IMG/VR virus record: IMGVR_UViG_2711768040_000011
Location: 1 to 44,606 of that record
From: a virus
Taxonomy: Duplodnaviria; Heunggongvirae; Uroviricota; Caudoviricetes
Reading direction: 5' to 3' (one strand)
DNA: 44,606 nt
In this document: positions 1,273 through 43,104 of the stretch, piece by piece
Position numbering within the stretch: the first letter of the stretch is position 1
Layout: each line of letters starts with the position of its first letter
Program-made: the position numbers and the translations under genes
The notes under the pieces: model-generated
What the model was told of the DNA's origin: nothing
Database searches by the model: none
What the model saw: only the letters and a program-made list of their open reading frames with translations

Positions 1273-1542
1273 TATCGTTGAGTATTAGCCTTGGTCAACC
1301 CGAAATTTTCTGATTTTCGTTACTGAGAGCTTAGGTATGGTGTAAGCTATTGACGTTAGTTTGCTCTCAACAAGTTACTAACTAGGGGGTCAGGCGGGCT
1401 TCGCTCTCTTGACCCCTGACTTTCCACATTGGTAGTTGTCCACTCCCTGCATCTGTTTTTACAAAGCACATAATCATTACACAAATTAAGCTTTATGATT
1501 ATAATGCTATTGTCTCTACATCTTTTGAGCCTAACAATCAAT

Positions 1543-2655
1543 ATGAAATTATCTCAAAATCAGTCTGATGCACTTGAGTCTCTCAGGGGGTTGTCAGCTA
1601 TCGCAGTGTTAATCTGTCACTTTTTTCAGGTCTTTCTGGCTAGATTTTATCCTGATTACTTTCATGCCGATTTGATCATTGCTCAGTCTAGCGTAATGAT
1701 TTTTTTTGTTATGAGTGGCTTTCTTATTGGTGTATCAGTGCAGTCAAACATCAGTCGAAACGGAAGTTTTGACCTCATTTCGTATGCCAAATCACGATTT
1801 CTTCGTATTTACCCGCCTTTATTGTTTGCCATTATATTGTGTTTCATTTTGTCTAGCTTGGCCCCAATTTTCTTTGAAAGCGGAAGCGCCTCTTTCATGA
1901 TCCCAGATGCTTTTACACGAGGTAAATCTCTGGAAATGCCAGCAAAAGAGATTTTGGCCTCACTTACTTTCATGAATGGATTCTTGCCAGTAGGTGCAAA
2001 TTTTAACTCCCCTCTGTGGAGCCTACCGTACGAGGTGTGGTACTACGTTGTCTTTGGCCTACTTGCAACTCTACGCCCTGGGCTTGTGATTCTTGGTCTT
2101 ATTTTTTTCTTTGTCATTTCAATGGCAAATGATCGCTTCATGGCTTACTCAGTAATATGGGGAGCCGGTTTCGCAATGTCATTCTTACTTTCAAGAACTG
2201 CTTATGCTAAAGCGCTATGTGTTATCGGGCTTGCTTATTTCGGTTATCAATCTTATTTAAATGCAGGAACATTCCTGGACGGAACAACCGATCTAGAAAT
2301 GTATAAAATTACATTCGGCCTCGCATTTTCCATGCTCGTTTATATAGCACTCTTCATTTATGACCTGCCTTTCAAGGTGTTAAAGAAATCATCAAAAATT
2401 TCATACACGTTATATATCACTCATTTCCCTGTTATGCTTTTCTTCATCGGAGCTTTCGAGTACACAGTTAAAAATGATGCTTCGTTATCTGCGGTCATTG
2501 GGATCTGCGCAATGGTTGTGGCCTTAATCATTTCGCATTACGCATCACAAGTTTTTGAGAACAAAAAAGTAATGGCTGCAATGTTTATGAAAAAGGCCAT
2601 GCAAGAAAAATCAAATATCAGAAGTCCGGAGCATACGTCCCTGACACAAAAATAG
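1543..2655 (+). CDS. membrane acyltransferase (acyltransferase-3/OafA family; putative O-antigen O-acetyltransferase, lysogenic conversion)
   Basis: Multi-TM protein with ESLRGLSAIAVLICH motif typical of acyltransferase-3; AT-rich; in-frame alternative start at 1495; 3' end overlaps tailspike 3' end. Confidence 0.8.
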   Translation: MKLSQNQSDALESLRGLSAIAVLICHFFQVFLARFYPDYFHADLIIAQSSVMIFFVMSGFLIGVSVQSNISRNGSFDLISYAKSRFLRIYPPLLFAIILCFILSSLAPIFFESGSASFMIPDAFTRGKSLEMPAKEILASLTFMNGFLPVGANFNSPLWSLPYEVWYYVVFGLLATLRPGLVILGLIFFFVISMANDRFMAYSVIWGAGFAMSFLLSRTAYAKALCVIGLAYFGYQSYLNAGTFLDGTTDLEMYKITFGLAFSMLVYIALFIYDLPFKVLKKSSKISYTLYITHFPVMLFFIGAFEYTVKNDASLSAVIGICAMVVALIISHYASQVFENKKVMAAMFMKKAMQEKSNIRSPEHTSLTQK

Positions 2656-4570
2656 TCGTGCCGAGAGACTGCAGGAATGCTGGTTTTACTAGAACATTCT
2701 TGAGGCTAACTGCTACCCACGTGCTATTCGAAACGTTGGCCGCCATCACGATAGTTTGTGTCGTTGATGGCGCATTCACTCCCACCGTAGCAGACGTGTC
2801 TACAAGAGTAGAACCAGCATAATATGACACTGCAGGTAACGTAGTTGTTGCTCCATGTGTCAATGTCACAAGACCAGCTGAACCAGATGCCGACACAAGG
2901 GATGAAATCCATGCTGGGGGAGTTGCGGCAGGCCTGCCAGATCTGATTTCGCCAGTATTTACGTTTACTATAATATCCAGATTGGCATATATAGTTACAC
3001 GCAAATTATAATCTGTGCTTACGTTTAATCTGTCAGCAATAGCAAACAAGCCACTGGTTAATTCTGTTCTGTTTAAATATGCGGTAAAATCAAACCAACA
3101 CGACGCATTATCTGAAATGGTAAATAATAATGAGTTACCGTCACTTGCAGGAGCAACCTTCGATATATTCGACGGGCGCATCACTCCAGTATCGTTATTT
3201 AGATTAAGAATTTGCCACGAAGAACTAGATGAGGCATATCGTGCTGCTGCAGCACAATGCTTTGCCCTTAGCCATGGCGCAACGTTGTTTCCTGTGTACT
3301 GTAACAGATCCTCAGGGGTCTTTGTTTTCACTCCCCCCTTCTCGATAGCCCACAATCCTCTCGCCGCTCCTGCACCCATGGTGTTATAGCCTTTTTGGGT
3401 ATAGTGAACTCCTTCTGTTCCTACGTTTCCGTCACGATTAAGGAATGAAGGACACCCATCAAAAGCAGTAACAGCAATATCTCGAGCATTAACAACATAT
3501 CTCTGAGCGTTCTGGATGGTTTGCCATGTGTATTCTGGTCGGTTCTTTGGGCTGCCAACTGTACAGTTTGCGAACCTTGCCAGAGGTATATCTGCAGAAA
3601 GATTATCGATGAGATTAACAAACAAAGATCGGTAAGAATCGAACGATGTCTCGTTAAGCTGATCTGTTTCACCCTGATGGAAGAGAACATATACTTTTCC
3701 GAGCGTTAACCCCTGAGTCCCCATTCTTGATATTGCATTATTAACACCTGCAACTAATAAGCCATAATAGTCAGACGCGCCAGTAGATGCCCCCTTAGAA
3801 AGTTGAGCTAACGAGGTAGCACCACGACCACAATGAACAACAACAGCACCCCTGCCACTCAGTCGATACCATTCGTTAGTAAATTCACCCCATGCATGCC
3901 CTGAAGATGCCACTCCTGACGAGCTTACAATGGCCTGAATGATCGGTTTAATAGTACCGTCTGTGAAATCATACATCAGTGATTTCGGCAGCGGGGATGG
4001 GAATCCAGACGTATCACCAGAAAGAATGGCCTCGCCAGCGCTATTGGACTGGCCGTAGGTCACGATCAGGTCATATACATCAGGGGCTTCAAGATATTTT
4101 GTACCCCTAACGTTCTGCGCAACCTGAGATGCCGGCACTCCAGCAATACTCACCGTGCTATTAACATCGGCTAGCTGCTTACGGAGAACATCGCTAACGT
4201 CAACGAGTTGCCATTTACCCTCGCCTGTTCCGCCTGATGAGCCAGGCGTTGATCCAGAAGGAACTGTCTTGGGTAATGTCGAAAGGTCATCCCATCGGTA
4301 CCATGCGCCAGAGGTAGTGTCCTGGATGATATCTCCTGGGTTATTGACTATCGCCCCACCCTGGAAGGTTCCTACGGGATTCCAGCCAAGGGCATAGATC
4401 TGTTCGAGAACCAAAGCCTTCAGACCTTCAATCGTGTAGTGCTTATTCCCGAAGCGATCGATATACCACTCAGCAAAAGAGGTAACGAATTCATCTATTT
4501 TCCCGGCGTTAAATTTCAGGTCAATTGGGGATTCGCTCGGTACAGGCCTATTGGTAGGTGTAGTAGCCAT
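2618..4570 (-). CDS. tailspike / receptor-binding protein with SGNH (SASA/DUF303-type) esterase domain
   Basis: 650-aa ORF at distal end of tail module; central GQSNSAGEA and HQGETD blocks resemble sialate O-acetylesterase family motifs; C-terminal third is AT-rich. Confidence 0.75.
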   Translation of the reverse strand: MATTPTNRPVPSESPIDLKFNAGKIDEFVTSFAEWYIDRFGNKHYTIEGLKALVLEQIYALGWNPVGTFQGGAIVNNPGDIIQDTTSGAWYRWDDLSTLPKTVPSGSTPGSSGGTGEGKWQLVDVSDVLRKQLADVNSTVSIAGVPASQVAQNVRGTKYLEAPDVYDLIVTYGQSNSAGEAILSGDTSGFPSPLPKSLMYDFTDGTIKPIIQAIVSSSGVASSGHAWGEFTNEWYRLSGRGAVVVHCGRGATSLAQLSKGASTGASDYYGLLVAGVNNAISRMGTQGLTLGKVYVLFHQGETDQLNETSFDSYRSLFVNLIDNLSADIPLARFANCTVGSPKNRPEYTWQTIQNAQRYVVNARDIAVTAFDGCPSFLNRDGNVGTEGVHYTQKGYNTMGAGAARGLWAIEKGGVKTKTPEDLLQYTGNNVAPWLRAKHCAAAARYASSSSSWQILNLNNDTGVMRPSNISKVAPASDGNSLLFTISDNASCWFDFTAYLNRTELTSGLFAIADRLNVSTDYNLRVTIYANLDIIVNVNTGEIRSGRPAATPPAWISSLVSASGSAGLVTLTHGATTTLPAVSYYAGSTLVDTSATVGVNAPSTTQTIVMAANVSNSTWVAVSLKNVLVKPAFLQSLGTTIFVSGTYAPDF

Positions 4571-4627: not shown

Positions 4628-7105
4628 TTATTGATAGATGGCGTCGCTGTACTCTGCGACAGTCAGAGATACCGTGTTATCTGTGTTCGGTTTGATGCTG
4701 TTGACCTTCCATAGTTGGCTGTTCAGCTCTTCCACTGTCGCAATGAGGTAGCGCGACGGGAGCTGTACAGTGTCTCCGTTCCAGATATTGAGTTGAATCT
4801 CGGGTATTGCCGCGGTGAATCCGTACTTCGTATCGGCGCGGGCGGTGGCCGGATAGCGCAGAGTCGGGTTGCCCAGGCTGTCGGTCACCAGGACATACAT
4901 CGAGCCGGTAAACGTTATTGGCTCGCTGGTATCAAAATTATTCCCGGCGCGGCCAGTGATATAACCTTGCTGCTGGTTGCTGTCGTAGATATCCGCTATC
5001 TGCACGACGCTACCGACCTGCATGATCCCGTCCTCAAACACTTTGGCGTTCATCTTCACCCGGGAGTAGATAAGGCGCCTCGTTTCGCGCAGAGCGCGTT
5101 CCCGCGCCTGATACTCGTTACGGAAGCCGACTATCTCGATTTTGTTCGGGTTCTCCGCTTCCTGCTCGACGATAGCGCCGTTCAGAACGCGGTAGTTGAT
5201 GTACGTCTTGTTGTTCGTGGTTGGATGCACGTAGGACACCTGCACGCCGTCGTAGCCGCCAGGAAGAGTGGCCTCGTACGTCATTTTGTACTCGTCCGTC
5301 TTCATGTTGGCACGGTTGAATACGGCCGCCGGGTAGTCAACCTTTTGATCACGGGTAAACGTCAGCACGCCGTCGTCCCAGTACGCAATGACAGATGCCG
5401 CATTGCAGATCGCCTGCACGCGGTCGCCGAGAGAATCGTTCTCGTCATCAAACGTGTAGTCGAAGTAACCCAGGCGTTCGTCAGGTAAGCTTTCAGCGAT
5501 CGAGTACAGGCCGTAAAGGTCAATGCTGCTAACAGGTTGCTCACCCATAATCAGCCAGGTATGCGCCACTGCATCAGCGAACGAGCGCGAGGCCCGCAGG
5601 GTGTAATCCACCGCTTGCGTCGTCAGGTTGTAACTGATGGTCTGACGCGTCACCAGGGCGTTGTATTTGCGGTCACGGCTGCCCAGGGCGTTCTCCGTCG
5701 CCCTTACCTTCACGCGCACCAGCGTATCGGTTGGATGCACGACGTTGGTTCTGACGTTGACCGAGTGGATCTCCTCAACCTTCAGGATAGAGGCATCACT
5801 GGAGTTATCTGTGCGCTGGAAGTTAATGGCGTACTTGCCGAAACCGCCGGTCGGCGTCAGCTTATCGGTGCGGTAAAATACTTCGCTCGATGATTTGTGC
5901 GGCGTACCCTGATGGTAGGTGAACGTCTGTTGCGTTCCCGGCACCTGGTTGTAGTCATCGTCAATCTTCCAGATCGTTACCTTCCAGTCAGCGGACTTTT
6001 TGCCGCCCAGCTGCACCTGAGTGTGCAGCCACAACTGAGAGGATTCGACAGGCGAGAAGAACGGGCCTACCACGAGCGCTTCGTTATCGTTGAGTATGAA
6101 CTTTGTCGTGTTGATGGTCGCCGTTGCCGGCACGTCAGGAGGGCCAATCAGATCCCCCATCGTGAATGTGTACCACCGGACCGGGTTAACCACTGCGCCG
6201 TCGTTGGTTTCGACAGCTGAAATCAGCGTGCCGGAGAAATCGACATCCTGCGTAACGTTTCCGGTTGGCGAGCTGTAGGTGACGTTAATCGTAAAGGTAA
6301 CGGCGTGCGGCAGGACCAGGCCCATGAAGTAATCAAACTCAGGCTGCTTGACGATTTTTACTGCAATCTGCCCGCCGGAGTAAGTTCCGCTCACAACCGT
6401 AGTAGCCGTAGCAGTCTCGATCGGGAAATTATCCGATTCGTTTTGCCCGGGCACTTCCTGGCCATCCACGTCGTCGAACCCGTAGCCTTCGTTGATGGTA
6501 GGGATCACTTCACCCGGCTGGTAAAACTGGAATTCTGCACCGGCCATGCTTCCGAGGCTGGACTCTGAATAACGCACAGACTCGTAATCATATTTGCCGA
6601 TCCCGATGCACATCCACTCAGTAACGTACTTCAGGCCGCCATCCGTGTCGCTCTGGCGCACGTATTCGAACAGCGACTCCTGAATCAGGTCCGGGAACGA
6701 ACGGATTTGTCCGTAGATGTCCGGTTTTGCTTTGTAGACGCGTGCCGTATTCGTCTGGCCGGTTAGGCTATTGTTTGGCGAGTCAATCGTGTTGCCGCCG
6801 GTATTGGCTATCGCCGGCTTTGGTGCAAGGAAAGAGAATACCGCGCCGACAACTTTGAAGATCGGGCTGAGAATGTCGCCAATGATGCCCTTGGGCTGGT
6901 CGAATATCTGGACGGTGTCCAGTTCACATAGCTCAAACGCCAGCTCATCATCTTCGCCCAGCTTTACGCCGTTGCGGACGATCAGCAGATCGCGGTGAAA
7001 GGTAGCGTCATTAGCTGCAAGCCAGTCATAAAAAAGGGTGCCGTTTGGCACCCTGCAACGCAGCTTAGGCGTTCCTGGAAAATTCGATATCTCAACCAGA
7101 GCCAT
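4628..7105 (-). CDS. tail tip / host specificity protein (gpJ-like central tail fibre)
   Basis: 825-aa ORF directly downstream of NlpC/P60 tail gene in conserved tail-tip order. Confidence 0.65.
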   Translation of the reverse strand: MALVEISNFPGTPKLRCRVPNGTLFYDWLAANDATFHRDLLIVRNGVKLGEDDELAFELCELDTVQIFDQPKGIIGDILSPIFKVVGAVFSFLAPKPAIANTGGNTIDSPNNSLTGQTNTARVYKAKPDIYGQIRSFPDLIQESLFEYVRQSDTDGGLKYVTEWMCIGIGKYDYESVRYSESSLGSMAGAEFQFYQPGEVIPTINEGYGFDDVDGQEVPGQNESDNFPIETATATTVVSGTYSGGQIAVKIVKQPEFDYFMGLVLPHAVTFTINVTYSSPTGNVTQDVDFSGTLISAVETNDGAVVNPVRWYTFTMGDLIGPPDVPATATINTTKFILNDNEALVVGPFFSPVESSQLWLHTQVQLGGKKSADWKVTIWKIDDDYNQVPGTQQTFTYHQGTPHKSSSEVFYRTDKLTPTGGFGKYAINFQRTDNSSDASILKVEEIHSVNVRTNVVHPTDTLVRVKVRATENALGSRDRKYNALVTRQTISYNLTTQAVDYTLRASRSFADAVAHTWLIMGEQPVSSIDLYGLYSIAESLPDERLGYFDYTFDDENDSLGDRVQAICNAASVIAYWDDGVLTFTRDQKVDYPAAVFNRANMKTDEYKMTYEATLPGGYDGVQVSYVHPTTNNKTYINYRVLNGAIVEQEAENPNKIEIVGFRNEYQARERALRETRRLIYSRVKMNAKVFEDGIMQVGSVVQIADIYDSNQQQGYITGRAGNNFDTSEPITFTGSMYVLVTDSLGNPTLRYPATARADTKYGFTAAIPEIQLNIWNGDTVQLPSRYLIATVEELNSQLWKVNSIKPNTDNTVSLTVAEYSDAIYQ

Positions 7106-7941: not shown

Positions 7942-8438
7942 TACGGCACCCTCGGTAGTGATTCCGGATCGCGTCCGTCCGGATAGCCAGTGACAACGAT
8001 ATCCAGCCAGGAATCCCACGGCGGCGGCAGTTCAACAATGATGTCGTCGAATTCGTCGTCGGCGTTGTAGAGGTGGTTCGCAATAACGGTCCCCGTCCAG
8101 GTCACCACCCCGCCGTCGATACTGGTTTGCACCGGCATCTGCGTGAAGTGAAGCTCCTGCAGCTGCAGGCCACTGCCGCCCAGGTTGATATTCATCCGGA
8201 ACCAGTTCAGGCCCCGGTTGAGATAGTTCGGGCTGCGCAGCCACTGTTGGAAAGCGCGCTCCTGCGCCAGGGTGAATATCCACGTCAGCGACCAGGTCAC
8301 TTTCAGGTCGTCGGTTTGGTTCTCGAATATGGCCGGGCCGACCGCTGGCTGATCGGTCTGGAACCCGGTATCGAGCGTCATGTTTTTGCTGGCCTTCTGC
8401 GCCAGCGGCAGCCAGTCGGGATAGTCGATAATTGGCAT
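7941..8438 (-). CDS. minor tail protein (distal tail component)
   Basis: 165-aa ORF immediately after tape measure gene, start overlaps TMP stop. Confidence 0.5.
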   Translation of the reverse strand: MPIIDYPDWLPLAQKASKNMTLDTGFQTDQPAVGPAIFENQTDDLKVTWSLTWIFTLAQERAFQQWLRSPNYLNRGLNWFRMNINLGGSGLQLQELHFTQMPVQTSIDGGVVTWTGTVIANHLYNADDEFDDIIVELPPPWDSWLDIVVTGYPDGRDPESLPRVP

Positions 8439-10771
8439 CAGCCCTGCCCCCTTGGCGTGCGTTTAACGTTCATGTTGCTGGTAATGGCGTTACTGATTGG
8501 GCCGCCGTTGTTCAGGTCTGCAACGATGAAATCAACGGTAAGCCCGCCGTTTGCATCTGTACCAGCCTGGGCATCGACAGAGGATGACGTATAGTTCTGG
8601 ATGTTGATTACCACCCCGCCGCCACCCCCTGCAGTCATATCCTTGTTACTGATCACCTTGCCGTTGTCGCCCGGTATCATGTACTGCTTACCGGTACTGG
8701 CCTGGTAAATCTCCGGCATGCCACCTTCGCCGACCTGGTACATTCCGCCCGCCGTTACCGGACCGCCGTTCTTACGTTTACCGAGAAGGTTCGCGCCAAT
8801 AACGCCGGCCACCGCGCCGAGACCGATCGCCGCCGCCGTACCCATTGAGGCTATTGAGGAAAGGATCGCCGCCGGGGTCCATGCCGCCGCAGTCGTTGCC
8901 GCCGCCGCTGTGCTGGTAGCAGTCTGTGTTGCCACTGCTGCCGTCTGCACTGCTGTCACCGTGCCGATAGCAGCAGTTTGTGCCGCTTGCCCCATGATGG
9001 CCGACTTCACCCACTCGATACCCATCTGGACGAACGAATTAACAACGCTGTTCAGGACCGTCATGCCTATACTGCGCATTGCGTCGCTGGCAGACATGCT
9101 GCCTGTGATGATTCCTGTCAGCGCGTTACTGGCAACCGAGCCGAGTGAATCGAAAGCTGCCGCCGCTGCTTGTGTGGCCGCGTTCTGCTGCGCCCACTCT
9201 TCCCACATCGCCGCGTTGCGCTGATCCCGATATTGCTGTTCGATAGCAGCGCGCGCAGCCTCAGCCTCCCCGACCTTTTGCGGGTAAAGCTGAGCGTATT
9301 GTTGGATATCCGAGATGTCTTTCTGATACTGACTATCCAGTCCGGCAGTTTTGCTGGTTTTACCCTGGATGGTGCTGAACTTATTGGCAGCGTCAGTACG
9401 CTCCTTTTCTGCCTTGGCCTGGGCGCGCAATGCGTTGGCGTTATCCCAGGCTTTAGCCGCGTATTGCCCGGCCAGAATGACCTGTTCCTGTGTCGCATCA
9501 TTACCGAGAGACTGCTGTGCATTAAGCACGGCCTGAGCTCGCGATAACTCACCAACGCTTCCGGCTGACAGTTCGGCTTTCTGCTTCAGTTCATCGAGTT
9601 TTTGGTTAACAGACTCTTGAGCTTTAGCGTATTGCTCTGCCTCTTTCTGAGCAGCAGACTTTCCGCCTTTCGCTTTGCTGCCAGCAGCTGAGCCGGACGT
9701 TTTAATCTCGATCGGCTTTGTGTTAGCCGCGGTCTGTGATGCTTTGGAAACAGCAGCCAGATCGCCAACCAGCATGGCAGCTTTATTGCTCAGCCCGGCC
9801 AGGGCTTTGTTTTGCGCTTCCCAGCCATCAAGTCCAAGCCAGGACCAGGTGCGCGCCCGACGCGTGAACATTTCTGCAGTGCTGTTCAGATCTGATATCT
9901 GAGCGTCTGCCGACGCCGCTTTACCCACCAGCCGGTCGAGCGCTGCAGTCATTGAGTCGATAACCGCAACCAGTCCTGTGCTTGCTCCTGTCGCCTGGTT
10001 AACAGAGTCAATCATCGACAGGAATGAGTTAGTCAGCGCGGTATTAGCCTGGGAAAGCGTGCGAGGGAGTTTCTCGAATTCTGCATTCACTGAGCCGGTT
10101 TGCTTCTGAATGGCGTTGAGAGCATCTTCTGCCGTCAGTTTGCCGTCCAGCATCAGCTGACGAAGTTCTCCAATACTTACACCCATCCCGGCGGCAATCT
10201 GGCGCGCAAGTTCAGGCATTTGCTCAAGGATGGAGTTGAACTCCTCCGCCCGGACAGTACCGGAGGAAATTGACTGACCGAACTGGCGCAGCGCATTCGC
10301 CATTTCCTCTGATGAGGATCCGCCAATGCGACCGATTTTCTGAAGCGTCTCGGTGAGCTGAATGATCTGGCCGTTCGTCGCGCCGGTATCGCGAAGTGCA
10401 GTGCTGAGAGTTTCCCACAGTTTTGCGGTGTCCTGCAGCGACCCGCCGGTTGCAGAGCTTATGCGCATCAAGGCCTGCATTGTCTGCGATGCCGCTGCAG
10501 CGCTGCCTGTCAGACGCTCAATGCGCGCGTTGAGCTGGCTCATGTTGTCAGCAGCAACGAGAAACGCCTTACCCCAGTCAACAACGAGTGAAGCCGCAAT
10601 AGCGCCGGCCACGCGGTTGATATTGGTCTGCAGCTCATCCATCTTTTTGGCTGCGTTAGTGGCAGAGTTGCCGATTGAGTCGAGTGACTTATTGGCCTTT
10701 CCCTGCGCCTTCAGCAAGCCAGAAACATCGGCCTCGATGTCGTAATAGATCTCGCCTGCTTTCTCAGACAT
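8438..10771 (-). CDS. tail tape measure protein
   Basis: 777-aa Ala/Gln-rich mostly helical protein with hydrophobic Gly-rich segment, located between chaperone and tail tip genes. Confidence 0.9.
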   Translation of the reverse strand: MSEKAGEIYYDIEADVSGLLKAQGKANKSLDSIGNSATNAAKKMDELQTNINRVAGAIAASLVVDWGKAFLVAADNMSQLNARIERLTGSAAAASQTMQALMRISSATGGSLQDTAKLWETLSTALRDTGATNGQIIQLTETLQKIGRIGGSSSEEMANALRQFGQSISSGTVRAEEFNSILEQMPELARQIAAGMGVSIGELRQLMLDGKLTAEDALNAIQKQTGSVNAEFEKLPRTLSQANTALTNSFLSMIDSVNQATGASTGLVAVIDSMTAALDRLVGKAASADAQISDLNSTAEMFTRRARTWSWLGLDGWEAQNKALAGLSNKAAMLVGDLAAVSKASQTAANTKPIEIKTSGSAAGSKAKGGKSAAQKEAEQYAKAQESVNQKLDELKQKAELSAGSVGELSRAQAVLNAQQSLGNDATQEQVILAGQYAAKAWDNANALRAQAKAEKERTDAANKFSTIQGKTSKTAGLDSQYQKDISDIQQYAQLYPQKVGEAEAARAAIEQQYRDQRNAAMWEEWAQQNAATQAAAAAFDSLGSVASNALTGIITGSMSASDAMRSIGMTVLNSVVNSFVQMGIEWVKSAIMGQAAQTAAIGTVTAVQTAAVATQTATSTAAAATTAAAWTPAAILSSIASMGTAAAIGLGAVAGVIGANLLGKRKNGGPVTAGGMYQVGEGGMPEIYQASTGKQYMIPGDNGKVISNKDMTAGGGGGVVINIQNYTSSSVDAQAGTDANGGLTVDFIVADLNNGGPISNAITSNMNVKRTPRGQG

Positions 10772-10788
10772 CAGTTTTCTCCGGGCAT

Positions 10789-10811
10789 AAAAAAACCCAC
10801 CGAGTGGTGGG
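10789..10811 (-). terminator. rho-independent terminator downstream of lipoprotein moron
   Basis: cccacc-gagt-ggtggg hairpin followed by 7 U on minus strand. Confidence 0.55.
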
Positions 10812-10828
10812 TTAGTTATTCGTGTCGT

Positions 10829-11203
10829 TTATTGGCATCGGTCTATGTATGCCTGAGGCGGCGGCGTATCTTTCGAGCTGAGGAAGTGTTCACCAAGCGT
10901 GTAATCGACACCTTTTGAGAACATCCCTTTCGATTTCATGTTCAGCTCAACGAAGAAAGGATGAAATCCAGCATACGCCCCGAAGCCGTTCTTGCCGTTA
11001 ATCTCACCGCAAACTACAGCAATGATACGGCCGTCATCGGCATCAGTCATTTTGGCTATTTTCACGTTGCGGAACTGTGCGCTAGCCGGGTCTTTAAGAT
11101 TTGCAGCAACCTCTGATTTCGCCAGTGATATAGCCTTTTCCTCGCCGGGCTTGCAGCCAGCCAGAACCAGTGGAATCGCCAAAGCCAAAAGTATTTTCTT
11201 CAC
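10829..11203 (-). CDS. lipoprotein (moron inside tail module)
   Basis: MKKILLALAIPLVLAGC signal peptide with lipobox; inserted between chaperone and tape measure genes, with its own terminator. Confidence 0.8.
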   Translation of the reverse strand: MKKILLALAIPLVLAGCKPGEEKAISLAKSEVAANLKDPASAQFRNVKIAKMTDADDGRIIAVVCGEINGKNGFGAYAGFHPFFVELNMKSKGMFSKGVDYTLGEHFLSSKDTPPPQAYIDRCQ

Positions 11204-11275
11204 CCTTATCCCCTGAGTTTTATTGTCGAGCCATATTACGCCCGGTCAGGCGTGGCTGGTATACCCATTATTAAC

Positions 11276-12019
11276 TCAGGCCGCTCTCTTTGCTGATTTT
11301 TCGCGCTCAATCATTTCCTGCCAACGGCGATCGTCATCGTCCATAACAGCGTCGTACTCTTCCCTGGTGAAGCCTTTCTGGTCCGGGTATTTGGCATTCA
11401 GCATCATTGCAAATTCGGTCATGGTGAGTTCCATCGCCTCTTCCTTGCTGATACCGAAGTGATTGCGGGCTGCCATGATGTATTCAGTCGCATGGAATTC
11501 TGGAGTCGTCTCCTTTCCTTCATGTTTCTGAAGTTTTCGAACCCTGGCCCGGCCGATAATGCCATGCATGATGAGAGACTGGGCTATGAGGATCAGGTTT
11601 TCTGGTGGGAGCGCGCCGCGGCGCCATACGAATGTACGACGACCTGTGCGAGAGGGTTCACTCCAGCCTGTTAACTCGGAAACATCTTCATCGCAGCAGG
11701 ATTGAATGACATTGATGGCCGAGAGAAGCGCCTCACGCACAAAAGCGGCAGAGCCTGCAGCATCAAGCGCCCAACGTGGAACCGAGACGTCACCGAAATA
11801 GTGGGCGTAGAACTTGCGCTGATGCTCAGGTATAGCGCTGTGAATTTCTCTCGCCGCATCAAGCATTCTCGCCACGTCGTCATTAAACAGCGCATAGAAC
11901 GTCCTGACGATATGGTCTGGCTCGCCAATGCGCGTCATGCTACGGAAAGACGGACGGAAGAAATATTCCCGCTCTCCAGCGCCTATCATGCACTCGCCAA
12001 TTTCTTTCAAAGGGGTCAT
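11276..12019 (-). CDS. putative tail assembly chaperone
   Basis: Position between major tail and tape measure genes; start ATG 12019 with GGAGA SD; no frameshift site identified. Confidence 0.45.
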   Translation of the reverse strand: MTPLKEIGECMIGAGEREYFFRPSFRSMTRIGEPDHIVRTFYALFNDDVARMLDAAREIHSAIPEHQRKFYAHYFGDVSVPRWALDAAGSAAFVREALLSAINVIQSCCDEDVSELTGWSEPSRTGRRTFVWRRGALPPENLILIAQSLIMHGIIGRARVRKLQKHEGKETTPEFHATEYIMAARNHFGISKEEAMELTMTEFAMMLNAKYPDQKGFTREEYDAVMDDDDRRWQEMIEREKSAKRAA

Positions 12020-12837: not shown

Positions 12838-12864
12838 AATAAAAAAGGCCGCCGGATGGCAGCC
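12838..12864 (-). terminator. hairpin with U-run upstream of major tail gene
   Basis: ggcugcc-aucc-ggcggcc stem (one G-U pair) followed by UUUUUUAUUU on minus strand. Confidence 0.4.
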
Positions 12865-12883
12865 TGATGGGTTGGTGATTGGG

Positions 12884-17876: not shown

Positions 17877-17900
17877 ATAAAAAAGGCCGCCGTAGCGACC
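17877..17900 (-). terminator. rho-independent terminator downstream of head-module moron
   Basis: ggucgc-uacg-gcggcc hairpin (one G-U) followed by UUUUUUAUU on minus strand. Confidence 0.45.
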
Positions 17901-17916
17901 TTCAGGAGCTCTGAGG

Positions 17917-25302: not shown

Positions 25303-25327
25303 ATAAAAAACCCGGCGACAGGCCGGG
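25303..25327 (-). terminator. rho-independent terminator in late-operon leader (tR'-like)
   Basis: cccggc-cuguc-gccggg hairpin followed by 8 U on minus strand, between tRNA and holin. Confidence 0.6.
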
Positions 25328-25381
25328 AAGATGAGGGTAAGGCAATGTCGGCTCTACGGCCTATCCCAGCTGGCGGGATTC

Positions 25382-25457
25382 TGGTGCTGATTGACGGAGT
25401 TGAACCGCCGACATCCTGCTTACAAGGCAGGCGCTCTACCTACTGAGCTAAATCAGC
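25382..25457 (-). tRNA. tRNA-Thr (anticodon UGU), phage-encoded
   Basis: 76-nt cloverleaf GCTGATT...AATCAGC-A-CCA: 7-bp acceptor stem, U8, GG in D-loop, anticodon loop CTTGTAA, T-loop TTCAACT, encoded CCA. Confidence 0.8.
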
Positions 25458-25549
25458 CAATAAAAAAGCCCCGCACGATGGCGAGGCTGGTTATTCATTC
25501 ATGTCACACACAACAATGGCAACATATACGAATTATTCTGCTCATTTGT

Positions 25550-26050
25550 TCATTGAAAAGCAAGCACGTTGTGAACATTTTTTGCAACTTTGTTCACATT
25601 ATCGCGGCTGATAAAGGCATTTTGCAGCGGTTGATACAGGCAGAACAGTGCCGCGTTAAGTGTTTCCTTCACCTCCCGGCGTATGGTGGATATGCTCGGG
25701 TGCTTATACTGATTCCCGCCACGCGTCTTCATCACTCGAGGTTTGCTCACAGCGTGCTGCCAGCTGGCGATGCGGATCTCACTGGAGTTGCAGACGTAAT
25801 AGGCGAAGACAACACGCCAGGCGTTCTCGTCGATATTTTTCAGGTAATGGCGCAGCACTGCGTCAATCAGCATACCGTCGTCGTCGCTACATACCGGGCG
25901 AGATGCCTGCTGCGGTTCGACGGTCGCCATAAACTTGGCAATCATGTTGATCATCGCCTTGTCTATCTTCCCGGTCTGCGACCATGCACCCCACAACTGG
26001 AGCCACTGATCAATCCACTGATGCTGCTCGTTGGTTAATTCCAGTTTCAT
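25550..26050 (-). CDS. putative late-gene antiterminator Q
   Basis: 166-aa ORF immediately upstream of tRNA/terminator/lysis genes; N-terminal QWIDQWLQLWGAWS block typical of one Q family. Confidence 0.55.
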   Translation of the reverse strand: MKLELTNEQHQWIDQWLQLWGAWSQTGKIDKAMINMIAKFMATVEPQQASRPVCSDDDGMLIDAVLRHYLKNIDENAWRVVFAYYVCNSSEIRIASWQHAVSKPRVMKTRGGNQYKHPSISTIRREVKETLNAALFCLYQPLQNAFISRDNVNKVAKNVHNVLAFQ

Positions 26051-34741: not shown

Positions 34742-34975
34742 TTAGGCCGCAGTATCACGCGGCGATGCGAATACCAGGCTTTCTTTTAGGACCGGAGCCT
34801 GGCGGTGAAAATTCTTCGTGCCTTTCTCGATAGCAGATGCCATTTCTGGAGATGCCCGGCGATTTCCGTAGGCGATCTGGTCCAGGTAACCTGGCGTCGT
34901 GTTAGCCAACTTTGCGAGCTGCGCCCATTCGTCGGTAGTGGCGGCCTTGCGCCAGCGGTGTAGTTCAGTGCTCAT
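34742..34975 (-). CDS. Cro-like / YdaS-like HTH regulator
   Basis: 77-aa ORF with HTH (WAQLAKLANTTPGYLDQIAYG), divergent from cI across operator region. Confidence 0.65.
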   Translation of the reverse strand: MSTELHRWRKAATTDEWAQLAKLANTTPGYLDQIAYGNRRASPEMASAIEKGTKNFHRQAPVLKESLVFASPRDTAA

Positions 34976-35007
34976 TGGTGTCTCCGGGTGAGTCGTTTGA
35001 TTTGGAG

Positions 35008-35073
35008 TTTAGCGTTATGCTAAATACTACGCAAGCATCATTTAGCAATTTGCACATTTATCATTTTGCTAAA
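35008..35073. promoter_or_regulatory. OR-like operator cluster (TTTAGC-N5-GCTAAA palindromes) with divergent promoters
   Basis: TTTAGCgttatGCTAAA at 35008-35024, TTTATCattttGCTAAA at 35057-35073, weaker site at 35041-35057. Confidence 0.5.
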
Positions 35074-35091
35074 AGCAGTAACAATGCAGGT

Positions 35092-35769
35092 ATGGAAAAT
35101 AAAGAAATCAGAAAAGCCAACCTGGAAGCGCTGTACGAGAAGCGTCAGCACGAGTCTGGAATGACCAAAGCGCAGTTTGCCGAGCTCATCGAGACAAGTC
35201 CGGCTGCGCTTAGCCAGCTACTGGGACCAAACCCTCATCGCAATATCGGCGATAAGATGGCTCGCAAAATTGAAACTGCGCTTGATCTGCCTTTTGGCTG
35301 GATGGATGTTTTACACGCCAGTGAAGAACCTTCGAACGTTGCATTTCGAGGACTGAACGAGACAAAAGGAAGTTATCCTGTAATCAGCTGGGTAAGCGCG
35401 GGGCAATGGATGGAAGCTGTAGAACCTTATCACCGAAGAGCGATAGATCGCTGGTATGACACGACTGTTGACTGCTCAGAAGATTCATTCTGGCTGGACG
35501 TTAAAGGGGATTCTATGACCTCCCCGGCTGGACTGAGCATACCCGAGGGAGCAGCGATACTTGTTGATCCTGAAGTCGAGCCGCGCAACGGAAAGCTGGT
35601 TGTCGCGAAGCTAGAAGGCGATAACGAAGCGACCTTTAAGAAGCTTGTAATCGATGCCGGCAGACGCTTCCTAAAGCCCCTTAACCCCGCATATCCAATG
35701 CTAGAAATTAATGGAAACTGCAAAATCATCGGCGTTGTGGTTGATGCCAAAATACTAAACATCCCATAA
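35092..35769 (+). CDS. cI: CI-type prophage repressor (HTH + LexA-like S24 autopeptidase)
   Basis: N-terminal HTH, Ala-Gly cleavage site (SAGQW), GDSM Ser and FKKL Lys motifs; ATG 35092 (ORF open from 34975). Confidence 0.9.
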   Translation: MENKEIRKANLEALYEKRQHESGMTKAQFAELIETSPAALSQLLGPNPHRNIGDKMARKIETALDLPFGWMDVLHASEEPSNVAFRGLNETKGSYPVISWVSAGQWMEAVEPYHRRAIDRWYDTTVDCSEDSFWLDVKGDSMTSPAGLSIPEGAAILVDPEVEPRNGKLVVAKLEGDNEATFKKLVIDAGRRFLKPLNPAYPMLEINGNCKIIGVVVDAKILNIP

Positions 35770-41922: not shown

Positions 41923-42012
41923 ACAGCATCAGCGCATCGCCGTGTGGCGGGTGACATCCCGCCAAATAACGACGATCAACTGAACATCAACACATTATAT
42001 GTACATACGACC

Positions 42013-43104
42013 ATGAACATTCAGATCAAAACACTATCTGTCCGAATTAAAGACAAGCACGCAGCCGTTTTGCGGCAGATGGCCTTTGAGGTCAATCAGA
42101 TCTTTAATCTGGCAAACGAGATAACCAGCGCAGCATACGGCAACGCTGGCTTTTTTGGCGCGCAAAAACCGCAATGGCTATCGGCGTTTGATGTTCAGAA
42201 ACCGCTCCTTAAAGAGCGAAAAGAGCGCGGGTATACCATCCCCAGCCATACCGTACAGGAAATCGCAGCAATTCACGGCAAGGCACGGAAGCAATTTAAA
42301 CGCTCTCGCTTACGCTGGCGAGTCAGTGGGGGATCTCGCCGTTCGTTGGGTTGGGTGCCGTTTAAAATAGGCAGCGCTGTCTGGAAAAATGGCGCGGTGC
42401 GGTTCGCTGGCAGGATTTTTAATGTCTGGGATAGCTACGGCTTGGGAGGATTTAAATTCCGTGCTGGAAGCTTTTCAGAAGACAGCCGTGGACGCTGGTA
42501 CTTCAATGTTTGCGTAGAGGTCGAAACTGTCCCATCAACGGCCACTTCCGCCGTGGGTATCGATTTAGGGCTGAAAGACTACGCCACCCCGTCAGAAGGT
42601 GATCCGCTGATTGCCGGTAGATTCTATCGAGATCTGGAGCCTGCATTAGGAAAGGCACAGCGTGCAAACAAAAAAGCCCGTGTACGCGCCATACACGCCA
42701 AAATTAAGAACCGCCGCAAAGATGCCCTGCACAAGTACAGCACGGCGCTGGTTAACAGCCATGCGGCAATATTCGTAGGCGACGCGAGCAGTAAGAAACT
42801 GGTTAAAACCAAAATGGCAAAAAGCATTTTGGACGCTGGCTGGTTCATGCTCAAAACACAACTGGAATATAAAGCGATTGCGCGGTCAGTGGTGTTTGAA
42901 GTGGTCAACGAAAGTTATTCCACCCAAGCTTGTTCGTGTTGCGGGGCTATCTCCGCCAACAGTCCGAAAGGTAGAGCAGGCCTGCGAATAAGAGAATGGA
43001 CTTGTTGTGAGTGCGGAACCACTCATGACCGCGACGTGAACGCCGCAAAGAACATTCTCGCGGCGGGGCATCGCCGTCTAGCTGTAGGAATCCCCTTCCT
43101 TTAG
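42013..43104 (+). CDS. tnpB: TnpB (RNA-guided endonuclease / IS605 OrfB family transposase accessory protein)
   Basis: RuvC-like blocks (SAVGIDLGLKDYAT; DRDVNAAKNIL) and C-terminal zinc finger CSCCG...CCECG; ATG 42013. Confidence 0.85.
   Translation: MNIQIKTLSVRIKDKHAAVLRQMAFEVNQIFNLANEITSAAYGNAGFFGAQKPQWLSAFDVQKPLLKERKERGYTIPSHTVQEIAAIHGKARKQFKRSRLRWRVSGGSRRSLGWVPFKIGSAVWKNGAVRFAGRIFNVWDSYGLGGFKFRAGSFSEDSRGRWYFNVCVEVETVPSTATSAVGIDLGLKDYATPSEGDPLIAGRFYRDLEPALGKAQRANKKARVRAIHAKIKNRRKDALHKYSTALVNSHAAIFVGDASSKKLVKTKMAKSILDAGWFMLKTQLEYKAIARSVVFEVVNESYSTQACSCCGAISANSPKGRAGLRIREWTCCECGTTHDRDVNAAKNILAAGHRRLAVGIPFL

What the first reader, a model, noticed from the sequence alone, without database searches (positions are those of the whole stretch)
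10789..11203. Lipoprotein moron with its own terminator inside the tail gene cluster
A 124-aa lipobox protein (LVLAGC) is inserted between the putative tail chaperone and the tape measure gene and is followed by a strong hairpin with a 7-U terminator. This position is normally occupied only by G/GT chaperone genes. It is a candidate superinfection-exclusion or envelope-modifying factor expressed from the lysogen.
Basis: partly seen in the sequence, partly recalled or inferred. Interest (0 to 1): 0.5.

Follow-up and report, generated by a model that had tools for sequence, protein, structure and literature searches.

The report
Swappable lipoprotein cargo before tape-measure gene
A small exported lipoprotein gene of unknown function sits as optional, swappable cargo at the classic "moron" site between the tail-chaperone and tape-measure genes of a lambdoid prophage; this arrangement is already known from phages HK97 and ES18, and the terminator after it belongs to the phage backbone, not to the insert.

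Summary
A 124-aa ORF (10829-11203, minus strand) has a conserved lipobox (Cys17) and is followed by an 8-bp G+C-rich hairpin with seven T, 18 nt before the tape-measure (TMP) start.

The gene is optional cargo, not a tail part. Across 97 related tail modules the same junction is empty (11), holds this lipoprotein (44), or holds other cargo (about 40). An empty-site allele delimits a 448-bp cassette.

The terminator is not the insert's own. All 53 unique junctions, including empty ones, carry a hairpin, T-run and GCCCGGAG directly 5' of the TMP start, with 13 stem variants that keep pairing. It lies outside the cassette.

The site is the archetypal moron site (HK97 gene 15). In ES18, gp20 is a homologous lipoprotein at the same junction and is already annotated "possible moron".

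The protein belongs to a very large, uncharacterised, exported family with a cystatin/NTF2-like fold and no Pfam entry. It is under strong purifying selection (dN/dS 0.06). It recurs in many phage backbones, often next to the TMP gene.

A superinfection-exclusion or envelope role is plausible but untested. There is no homology to known exclusion proteins. Promoter evidence is limited to a conserved TAnnAT with no -35.

Verdict: new member of a known kind; modest interest.

The parts
10829..11203 (-). Lipoprotein gene (124 aa). Signal peptide is residues 1-16, and the lipid-modified Cys17 codon is 11155..11153. Lys at +2 predicts outer-membrane sorting. Cys65 and Cys123 are invariant.
   Evidence: phrog_2320 E=1.4e-32. 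AF2 model pLDDT 81.
10820..11267 (-). 448-bp cargo cassette (leader + ORF + 9-nt trailer), defined against the empty-site allele. Its boundaries are ambiguous by 4 nt because of ATAA microhomology.
   Evidence: L081 reads TGAgataataa|ataactaaccc, whereas the filled alleles carry the cassette between these flanks. G+C is about 0.49 against about 0.55 in the flanks.
11233..11238 (-). Candidate -10 hexamer TAATAT in the 72-nt leader. No recognisable -35.
   Evidence: In 24 unique leaders, positions 1, 2, 5 and 6 are invariant while 3 and 4 vary (TAATAT, TATGAT, TAAGAT, TAAAAT). It was not reported by the consensus scan.
10789..10813 (-). Intrinsic-terminator-like hairpin (8 bp, 4-nt loop) plus 7 T. 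This is a resident backbone element, not part of the cassette.
   Evidence: It is present at 53/53 unique junctions whatever the cargo, in 13 stem types that keep pairing. It is absent from the lytic relative CobraSix.
10769..10788 (-). Conserved ATGCCCGGAG block with the TMP SD (GGAG, 10782..10779) and the TMP start codon (10771..10769).
11276..12019 (-). DUF6246/phrog_791 gene in the tail-chaperone position; it forms the left border of the cargo hotspot.
8438..10771 (-). Tape measure protein (777 aa, TMP_3); it forms the right border of the hotspot.
25311..26050 (-). Late-control region: the Q antiterminator gene (25550..26050), a PR'-like site (25559..25532) and two strong terminators (25488..25467, 25327..25311). 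This implies antiterminated late transcription that can read through the internal hairpins.
   Evidence: Pfam PF06530; scan.

Best explanation
The feature is a 448-bp accessory cassette dropped into a cargo hotspot of an ES18-type tail module, between the DUF6246 gene (chaperone position) and the tape-measure gene, in a lambdoid, Q-regulated prophage.

Shown:
- The cassette is optional and exchangeable among close relatives.
- It encodes a lipoprotein under strong purifying selection. The protein belongs to a very large family of exported proteins with a cystatin/NTF2-like fold and no assigned function.
- The downstream hairpin and T-run is a conserved backbone element fixed to the 5' side of the TMP ribosome-binding site, present whether or not cargo is there.

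Inferred:
- Lsp/Lol process the protein and anchor it in the inner leaflet of the outer membrane (Lys at +2), facing the periplasm, probably stabilised by a Cys65-Cys123 disulfide.
- The resident terminator stops any transcript that is not Q-modified (from a weak cassette promoter or read-in) from entering the TMP and tail-tip genes. Q-modified polymerase reads through it during lytic growth, so the lipoprotein is also made late.
- The most likely role is an envelope-level block on incoming or re-adsorbing phages, that is superinfection exclusion or protection of progeny, acting in the periplasm near the outer membrane. This matches other envelope-targeted cargo placed in tail operons.

Approximate confidence by part: optional cargo at a hotspot 0.9; terminator is backbone 0.9; exported outer-membrane lipoprotein 0.8; anti-phage exclusion function 0.35. 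The overall figure of 0.6 is for the whole statement taken together.
For: Optional and swappable cargo:
- E. coli CUPF06 and L73 prophages have 36- and 61-nt gaps.
- E. coli O22:H8 154 and three other strains carry a different 119-aa secreted protein at the same site.
- Census of 97 junctions: 44 with the lipoprotein, 3 with a family member as the last gene of larger cargo, 38 with other cargo, 11 empty.
- A clean empty-site allele exists.
- Related phages carry KilA-N, Arc or antirepressor cargo here, while lytic CobraSix has none.

Terminator is backbone:
- 53/53 unique junctions have a perfect 7-8-bp hairpin (dG -9.5 to -13.5) plus a T-run.
- The 13 stem types include AACCCACC/GGTGGGTT, AACCCGC/GCGGGTT, GACCCTCT/GGAGGGTT and AACCTCGC/GCGAGGTT.

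Q system.

The protein:
- Homologues of 85-98% identity sit at the same junction in Enterobacter, Klebsiella aerogenes, Salmonella and E. coli.
- dN/dS is 0.06.
- The family has 14,025 representatives at E<=1e-3.
- Family members carry different anchors or fusions: lipid, Sec signal or TM helix, and PG_binding_1 or SPOR domains.

Family members at moron-type sites in unrelated backbones:
- P2-like SEN5, between ogr and int.
- Downstream of or next to cI-like repressors.
- On the opposite strand between the chaperone and TMP genes in Gordonia phages.
- Between tail genes K and I.

Precedents:
- HK97 gp15, at this same junction, is a prophage-expressed exclusion protein (PMC3594210).
- Lipoproteins in the structural cluster of mEpimmI phages exclude phages (PMC11893012).
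- P-FimU lies between the tail tube and chaperone genes (PMC12952977 and bioRxiv 10.1101/2024.03.05.583538).
Against: - No expression data are available.
- There is no sigma-70 consensus promoter in the 72-nt leader, only a conserved TAnnAT without a -35, so lysogen expression is unproven.
- There is no sequence match to Cor, Llp, SieA or any PADLOC, NCBIfam or annotated PHROG exclusion family. The tested mEp021 Lpp is visibly unrelated in length and sequence (no formal comparison was run).
- Cargo type does not co-vary with the J C-terminus: it is 87-93% identical in lipoprotein-bearing, other-cargo and empty prophages. This argues against a Cor/Llp-style pairing with the phage's own receptor-binding protein.
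- The fold is generic and does not indicate a function.
- The G+C deviation is small.
Confidence: 0.6

Rival explanations
1. The lipoprotein is made only as part of the Q-dependent late operon and acts during lytic growth, not in the lysogen. It might mask envelope receptors so that progeny are not wasted on debris or sibling cells (like T5 Llp, or the 'anti-Kronos' effect), or it might condition the envelope before lysis.
For: - The gene is co-oriented with the late operon and embedded in it.
- No consensus promoter is present.
- The cassette has no terminator of its own.
- Q, PR' and tR' architecture is present.
- Progeny protection by tail-operon-embedded genes is documented (bioRxiv 10.1101/2024.03.05.583538).
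Against: - The TAnnAT in the leader is conserved.
- Family members lie downstream of or next to cI-like repressors, next to int/att in a P2-like phage, and on the opposite strand in Gordonia phages. These positions point to expression independent of late transcription, at least elsewhere in the family.
Confidence: 0.25
2. The lipoprotein is a host-fitness or virulence factor unrelated to phage exclusion. For example, it could be a periplasmic inhibitor or binder (cystatin-like) of a host or competitor enzyme such as a protease or a peptidoglycan hydrolase, or a Bor-like resistance factor.
For: - The fold is cystatin/latexin/NTF2-like.
- Other family members are fused to PG_binding_1 or SPOR domains.
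- The family is very large.
- Cargo type is not coupled to the J type.
Against: - Every context examined is a phage or prophage. Family genes frequently abut TMP or tail-tip genes, which is easier to explain by a phage-directed role.
- There is no match to Bor or to known inhibitor families.
Confidence: 0.2
3. The protein is a structural or assembly component of the tail, a second chaperone-like gene.
For: - It lies between the chaperone-position gene and the TMP gene.
- It is conserved in many prophages with the 775-aa TMP.
Against: - It is absent from, or replaced in, modules with 90-100% identical DUF6246 and TMP.
- Its signal peptide and lipobox send it out of the cytoplasm, where tails assemble.
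- Its homologues occur at non-tail sites.
Confidence: 0.03

Closest known systems
HK97 gene 15 moron (gp15, YebO-like superinfection exclusion protein)
   Same: It occupies the same genomic slot, between the tail assembly chaperone gene and the tape-measure gene of a lambdoid siphophage. It is optional relative to relatives, its product is small and envelope-targeted, and gp15 is expressed from the prophage and blocks DNA entry (PMC3594210).
   Different: There is no sequence relationship. gp15 is an inner-membrane helix protein, whereas this product is a lipoprotein predicted to go to the outer membrane. By the moron definition quoted in that review, a moron has its own promoter and terminator, whereas here the terminator is a resident backbone element and a promoter is unproven.
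Phage ES18 genes 18-20 ('possible morons'), especially gp20
   Same: It has the same tail-module family (gene 17 = DUF6246) and the same junction. The same hairpin/T-run/GCCCGGAG block sits before the TMP gene. gp20 is a lipoprotein (lipobox LTAC) with the same domain motif (DPESAKF...VNAKNSYGGYTG) and is the last gene before the hairpin.
   Different: gp20 is only distantly similar: it matches the family HMM at E=1.7e-12, and its 34% tblastn identity is to the LMessi homologue, not to the window protein. It has a 40-aa extra linker and is part of a three-gene cargo. Its function is equally unknown.
Cor (phi80/N15/HK022), T5 Llp and mEpimmI Lpp exclusion lipoproteins
   Same: They are small phage-encoded lipoproteins placed in or beside structural genes, and they act at the outer membrane to exclude phages (PMC11893012; PMC3594210).
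   Different: No homology is detectable. The mEp021 Lpp looks unrelated in length and sequence by eye; no formal comparison was run. Those genes lie next to the receptor-binding genes and match the phage's own receptor. Here the gene lies before the TMP gene and does not co-vary with J.
Ltp of Streptococcus thermophilus phage TP-J34
   Same: It is a prophage lipoprotein that mediates superinfection exclusion (abstract of PMC3952083). From my own knowledge, not checked here, it acts by blocking DNA injection through the incoming phage's tape-measure protein. That is a possible model for a TMP-linked periplasmic blocker.
   Different: Ltp comes from a Gram-positive host, is unrelated in sequence, and is encoded in the lysogeny module, not in the tail operon.

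Membership tests
Moron (as defined in the review PMC3594210, citing Juhala/Hendrix 2000) | Extra DNA present in one genome and absent at the same site in close relatives | tested here: met
   Empty-site alleles L081, L016, L017, L059, L060 and others; a 448-bp indel with ATAA microhomology.
Moron (as defined in the review PMC3594210, citing Juhala/Hendrix 2000) | Own promoter | tested here: inconclusive
   No site scoring 9/12 or better in the leader. A TAnnAT hexamer is conserved across 24 leader variants but has no -35.
Moron (as defined in the review PMC3594210, citing Juhala/Hendrix 2000) | Own terminator | tested here: not met
   The terminator lies outside the indel and is present at empty sites and with every kind of cargo. 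The unit does still end at a terminator.
Moron (as defined in the review PMC3594210, citing Juhala/Hendrix 2000) | Base composition deviating from the flanks | tested here: met
   G+C is 0.48-0.50 against about 0.55 in the flanks, a weak deviation. The alternative cassette in L015 is 0.37.
Moron (as defined in the review PMC3594210, citing Juhala/Hendrix 2000) | Expression from the repressed prophage | not testable with these tools
   Needs RNA-seq or a promoter fusion.
Bacterial lipoprotein (Lgt/Lsp/Lol substrate) | Positively charged n-region, hydrophobic core, lipobox [LVI][ASTVI][GAS]C | tested here: met
   MKKILLALAIPLVLAGC. The lipobox is kept as LAGC, LSGC or LAAC in 31 alleles. Pfam LPAM_1 scores 18.9 bits, just below the cut-off of 20.
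Bacterial lipoprotein (Lgt/Lsp/Lol substrate) | Residue +2 decides sorting (Asp = inner-membrane retention) | tested here: met
   Lys at +2 in all alleles, so outer-membrane sorting is predicted by the +2 rule. This is an inference, not a localisation experiment.
phrog_2320 / ES18 gp20-like exported domain family (no Pfam entry) | HMM match and the conserved motif DPxSAxF ... CGxxNxKNxxGxYxG | tested here: met
   phrog_2320 E=1.4e-32. Invariant D38, P39, S41, F44, C65, G66, N72, G75, Y77 and G79 in 49 sequences. ES18 gp20 hits the family HMM at 1.7e-12.
Known superinfection-exclusion or defence protein families (Cor, Llp, SieA, PADLOC systems) | Sequence-profile match | tested here: not met
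   No PADLOC or NCBIfam hit. All seven PHROG hits are 'unknown function'. No PDB sequence hit.
Known superinfection-exclusion or defence protein families (Cor, Llp, SieA, PADLOC systems) | Cor/Llp-type linkage to the cognate receptor-binding protein | tested here: not met
   The J C-terminus is 87-93% identical in prophages with the lipoprotein, with other cargo and with an empty site. The gene is not adjacent to J.
Intrinsic (Rho-independent) terminator | G+C-rich stem-loop directly followed by a U-run, with pairing conserved across relatives | tested here: met
   8 bp (5 G-C in the scan's count) plus 7 U. 53/53 junctions keep a perfect stem, in 13 stem types.
Intrinsic (Rho-independent) terminator | Termination activity, and read-through by Q-modified polymerase | not testable with these tools
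   Only the architecture (Q, PR'-like site, tR'-like terminators) is shown.

The most novel reading that the evidence does not exclude
The DPxSAxF/CGxxNxKN domain family may be a widespread, still unnamed class of periplasmic anti-injection factors aimed at the tape-measure or tail-tip complex of incoming siphophages. That would explain three things: why its genes are so often placed directly beside TMP genes in unrelated tail modules of Gamma- and Alphaproteobacteria and of Actinobacteria (on the opposite strand in Gordonia phages); why it sits between tail genes K and I in lambda-like phages; and why ES18-type modules keep a terminator-insulated landing pad in front of the TMP gene.
Probability: 0.2. 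Interest if true: 0.6.

Novelty: new member of a known kind. Interest (0 to 1): 0.3.

Why it matters
In itself this is a textbook-style accessory gene at the textbook site, so it changes little. Three by-products are of some use.

1. It points to a very large exported protein family (about 14,000 clusters at 50% identity) with no Pfam entry and no known function. The family is carried by phages of several phyla, is under strong selection and is easy to test.
2. It shows that the 'moron terminator' here is a conserved backbone insulator glued to the TMP ribosome-binding site. This defines a cargo landing pad where cassettes are exchanged.
3. It gives a ready natural experiment for exclusion or progeny-protection assays: near-isogenic empty, lipoprotein and other-cargo alleles.

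Tried and rejected
Searches and comparisons that led nowhere:
- megablast of the region against the phage collection found only a TMP fragment in CobraSix.
- PDB sequence search and Foldseek against PDB gave no significant match.
- The afdb50 library was unavailable.
- The papers of Cumby 2012, Tsao 2018 and Casjens 2005 are not held. ES18 is therefore cited from its GenBank annotation and HK97 gp15 from the review PMC3594210.
- No paper was found on DUF6246, or on Gordonia phages combined with chaperone, tape-measure and lipoprotein terms.

Ideas tested and dropped:
- mEpimmI Lpp as a homologue: not supported. mEp021 gp81 is a 72-aa protein downstream of J that looks unrelated by eye; no formal comparison was run.
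- A link to the Tai systems: the paper places Tai genes elsewhere.
- A sigma-70 promoter CTGACC-16-GACAAT in the leader: the CTGACC is not conserved among alleles.

Method limits:
- RNAalifold and MAFFT could not keep hairpins of different stem length in register. Stem conservation was therefore scored per sequence.

Correction:
- I first assumed the window was E. coli M37H. That holds only for 10600-11500 (100% identity). M37H has an extra HNH gene and its J C-terminus is only 89% identical.

Full report
**Observation.** On the minus strand, ORF 10829..11203 encodes 124 aa from a GTG preceded by GGGGA. The N-terminus MKKILLALAIPLVLAGC is a standard lipoprotein signal with Cys17; Pfam LPAM_1 scores 18.9 bits, just under its cut-off of 20. 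Fifteen nucleotides after the stop lies AACCCACC-ACTC-GGTGGGTT (10813..10794), running into seven T (to 10789). Next come ATGCCCGGAG, carrying the TMP Shine-Dalgarno, and the TMP ATG at 10771.

**Setting.** The window is a lambdoid prophage.
- Its structural genes are all on the minus strand, downstream of a Q antiterminator gene (25550..26050, PF06530).
- Downstream of Q there is a PR'-like site and two strong terminators (25488..25467, 25327..25311), followed by the lysis genes.
- A CI-like repressor lies at 34975..35769.
- The stretch 10600-11500 is 100% identical to E. coli M37H, whose related prophage sits at tRNA-Arg/yfdC. The window as a whole is not that prophage.
- Other hairpin-plus-T-run sites lie inside the late operon at 17903, 12865 and 7054. 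Late transcription must therefore read through terminators, as expected for Q-modified polymerase (established lambdoid biology; an inference here).

**The gene is optional, exchangeable cargo.**
- In lytic phage CobraSix, DUF6246 abuts the TMP gene.
- In E. coli CUPF06 and L73 prophages the gap is 36 and 61 nt.
- E. coli O22:H8 154 and three other strains have 90-98% identical flanks but a different, A+T-rich 119-aa protein with a Sec signal. hhalign suggests it is a distant relative of the same family (probability 83%, E 9e-6).
- Klebsiella phage 2b and Erwinia phage Midgardsormr38 carry KilA-N, Arc and antirepressor genes at this site.
- I surveyed 97 junctions from genome and IMG/VR contigs; the sample is biased towards close relatives. 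Of these, 44 carry the 124-aa lipoprotein, 3 carry a family member as the last gene of a larger cargo (ES18, L110, L117), 38 carry other cargo, 11 are empty and 2 could not be resolved, one of which also carries the lipoprotein and is counted among the 44.
- The empty allele L081 reads TGAgataataa|ataactaaccc. Filled alleles have the cassette exactly between these flanks. This defines a 448-bp unit (11267..10820) bounded by ATAA microhomology.

**The terminator belongs to the backbone.** All 53 unique junction sequences carry a perfect 7-8-bp hairpin (dG -9.5 to -13.5 kcal/mol), a T-run and (A/T)TGCCCGGAG directly 5' of the TMP start. This holds whether the site is empty, holds the lipoprotein or holds multi-kb cargo. 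There are 13 stem types that preserve pairing through changes on both arms, such as ACC/GGT versus GC/GC, CTCT/GGAG and GCGGGG versus GCGAGG. The hairpin lies outside the indel. ES18's record annotates the same element as a putative terminator. I read it as an insulator fixed to the TMP gene: it stops unmodified polymerase and is read through by Q-modified polymerase. Termination and read-through themselves are not shown.

**Promoter.** The consensus scan finds nothing in the 72-nt leader. In 24 leader variants the hexamer at 11238..11233 keeps positions 1, 2, 5 and 6 (TA..AT) while positions 3 and 4 vary (TAATAT, TATGAT, TAAGAT, TAAAAT). No -35 is recognisable. Klebsiella-type cassettes share a different leader that reads as TTGTCG-17-TACGAT followed by GGGGATAGGGAT-ATG. 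Expression from the lysogen therefore remains a hypothesis.

**The protein.**
- Close homologues (85-98% identity) occur in E. coli, E. marmotae, Enterobacter, K. aerogenes, Salmonella and Citrobacter, always at this junction.
- Thirty-one unique alleles give a median dN/dS of 0.06 at dS 0.68. Cys17, Cys65 and Cys123 are invariant.
- The core motif is DPxSAxF...CGxxNxKNxxGxYxG.
- A profile search finds 14,025 cluster representatives at E<=1e-3. Even so, there is no Pfam, NCBIfam or PADLOC match, and all PHROG matches are 'unknown function'.
- Family members are always exported, by a lipid anchor, a Sec signal or a TM helix. Some are fused to PG_binding_1 or SPOR domains.

**Contexts of family members elsewhere.**
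- Immediately before the TMP gene: Klebsiella phage vB_VIPKPNMC05 (after the G/T chaperone genes), a Pseudomonas prophage, a Rhizorhabdus prophage and several IMG/VR contigs.
- On the opposite strand between the frameshifted chaperone gene and the TMP gene: Gordonia phages.
- After the TMP gene, together with Arc and antirepressor genes.
- Between tail genes K and I: Fraca, LMessi, AUS531phi and a metagenomic phage.
- Between ogr and int in P2-like SEN5.
- Beside cI-like repressors, and near Ant and an O-antigen acetylase in PAJU2.
- By my own grouping, about 7 of 37 distinct non-window-type members in one sample abut a TMP or TMP-like ORF. Five of those ORFs are confirmed by Pfam. This spread across backbones is the signature of mobile cargo. 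The excess next to TMP genes is unexplained.

**Comparison with what is known.**
- The slot between chaperone and TMP genes is where 'moron' was first defined. HK97 gene 15 lies there, and its product is a prophage-expressed exclusion protein (PMC3594210).
- ES18, which has the same tail-module family, has genes 18-20 annotated 'possible moron', and gp20 is a homologous lipoprotein.
- Exclusion genes embedded in tail operons are documented for mEpimmI phages and for Pseudomonas F10-like phages.
- The present protein matches no annotated exclusion family. The tested mEp021 Lpp looks unrelated by eye, although no formal comparison was run.
- The cargo type does not track the J C-terminus.

**Mechanism and verdict.** The best-supported reading is as follows. 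The cassette is optional cargo encoding an outer-membrane-anchored periplasmic lipoprotein. It sits in a terminator-insulated landing pad in front of the TMP gene. It is made at least during late transcription and possibly at a low level in the lysogen. Its most likely role is to protect the lysogen, or the progeny phage, at the envelope. The first three statements are well supported; the function is a guess with about one chance in three. The rivals are a late-only lytic role, a non-phage fitness role such as an enzyme inhibitor, and a structural role, which the evidence effectively excludes. This is a new member of a known kind, and its interest is modest.

Noticed in passing
window 10769-10813 (-); L001, L015-L025, L030, L042-L121: A hairpin + T-run + (A/T)TGCCCGGAG block directly 5' of the TMP start is conserved in every temperate DUF6246-type tail module examined: 53 unique sequences with 13 stem variants that keep pairing. 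It is absent from the lytic relative CobraSix. It behaves like a built-in insulator or landing pad for cargo.
   Followed up: yes
L028, L032, L122, L123, L142, L158, L165, L169, L190 (also L180, L192): Genes of the same exported-domain family lie directly next to tape-measure genes in unrelated tail modules of Klebsiella, Pseudomonas, Rhizorhabdus and Gordonia phages (opposite strand in Gordonia) and of several metagenomic phages. This is far more often than random placement would give. Whether it reflects site permissiveness or a functional link to the TMP is unexplained.
   Followed up: partly
L001, L095-L121 (cargo between DUF6246 and TMP): In Klebsiella-type multi-gene cargo, unrelated ORFs, many with signal peptides or lipoboxes, share a leader of about 60 nt ending in GGGGATAGGGAT-ATG. 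The upstream terminator's T-run overlaps a -35-like TTGTCG, followed after 17 nt by TACGAT (or TAATCT). This looks like a modular terminator-promoter-RBS cassette structure.
   Followed up: partly
L015 3261-3620 (-); L025, L082-L085: The alternative cargo in E. coli O22:H8 154, GB089, 09-00049 and OkiPb01715 is an A+T-rich 119-aa Sec-signal protein. hhalign places it as a distant relative of the lipoprotein family (probability 83%). One family member therefore seems to have been swapped for another that has a different anchor.
   Followed up: partly
window 7035-7054 (-): A strong terminator-like hairpin (8 bp, 6 G-C, then TTTTTTAT; z = -4.3) lies inside the 5' end of the TipJ ORF, about 50 nt after its ATG, and not in an intergenic gap.
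   Followed up: no
window 12846-12865 (-) and 17882-17903 (-): Further strong hairpin + T-run sites sit at gene boundaries inside the late operon, one before the major tail gene and one in the head region. Their tails (TTTTTATTTG and TTTATTGCCA) are similar to the TTTTTATGCC tail before the TMP gene.
   Followed up: no
window 25311-25559 (-): There is a classical lambdoid late-control layout: a PR'-like site overlapping the end of the Q gene, then two strong terminators before the lysis genes.
   Followed up: partly
window 1495-2655 (+) and 2618-4570 (-): An Acyl_transf_3 (O-antigen acetylase-like) gene lies convergent with a tailspike carrying an SASA/SGNH esterase domain. This is a likely pair for lysogenic conversion and receptor destruction.
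   Followed up: no
window 41944-43104 (+): An IS605 OrfB/TnpB-like gene (OrfB_IS605 + Cas12f1-like TNB domains) lies near the far end of the window.
   Followed up: no
alignment A4; window 10783-10798 (-): On the MAFFT alignment, RNAalifold preferred pairing the GGG of the terminator's 3' arm with the CCC just 5' of the TMP Shine-Dalgarno. This is probably an alignment artefact, but both GGG and GCCC are nearly invariant.
   Followed up: no
L014 16397-16864 (E. coli M37H): The M37H prophage, identical to the window over the lipoprotein region, carries an HNH endonuclease gene between the NlpC/P60 gene and the upstream tail gene. The window lacks this gene.
   Followed up: no
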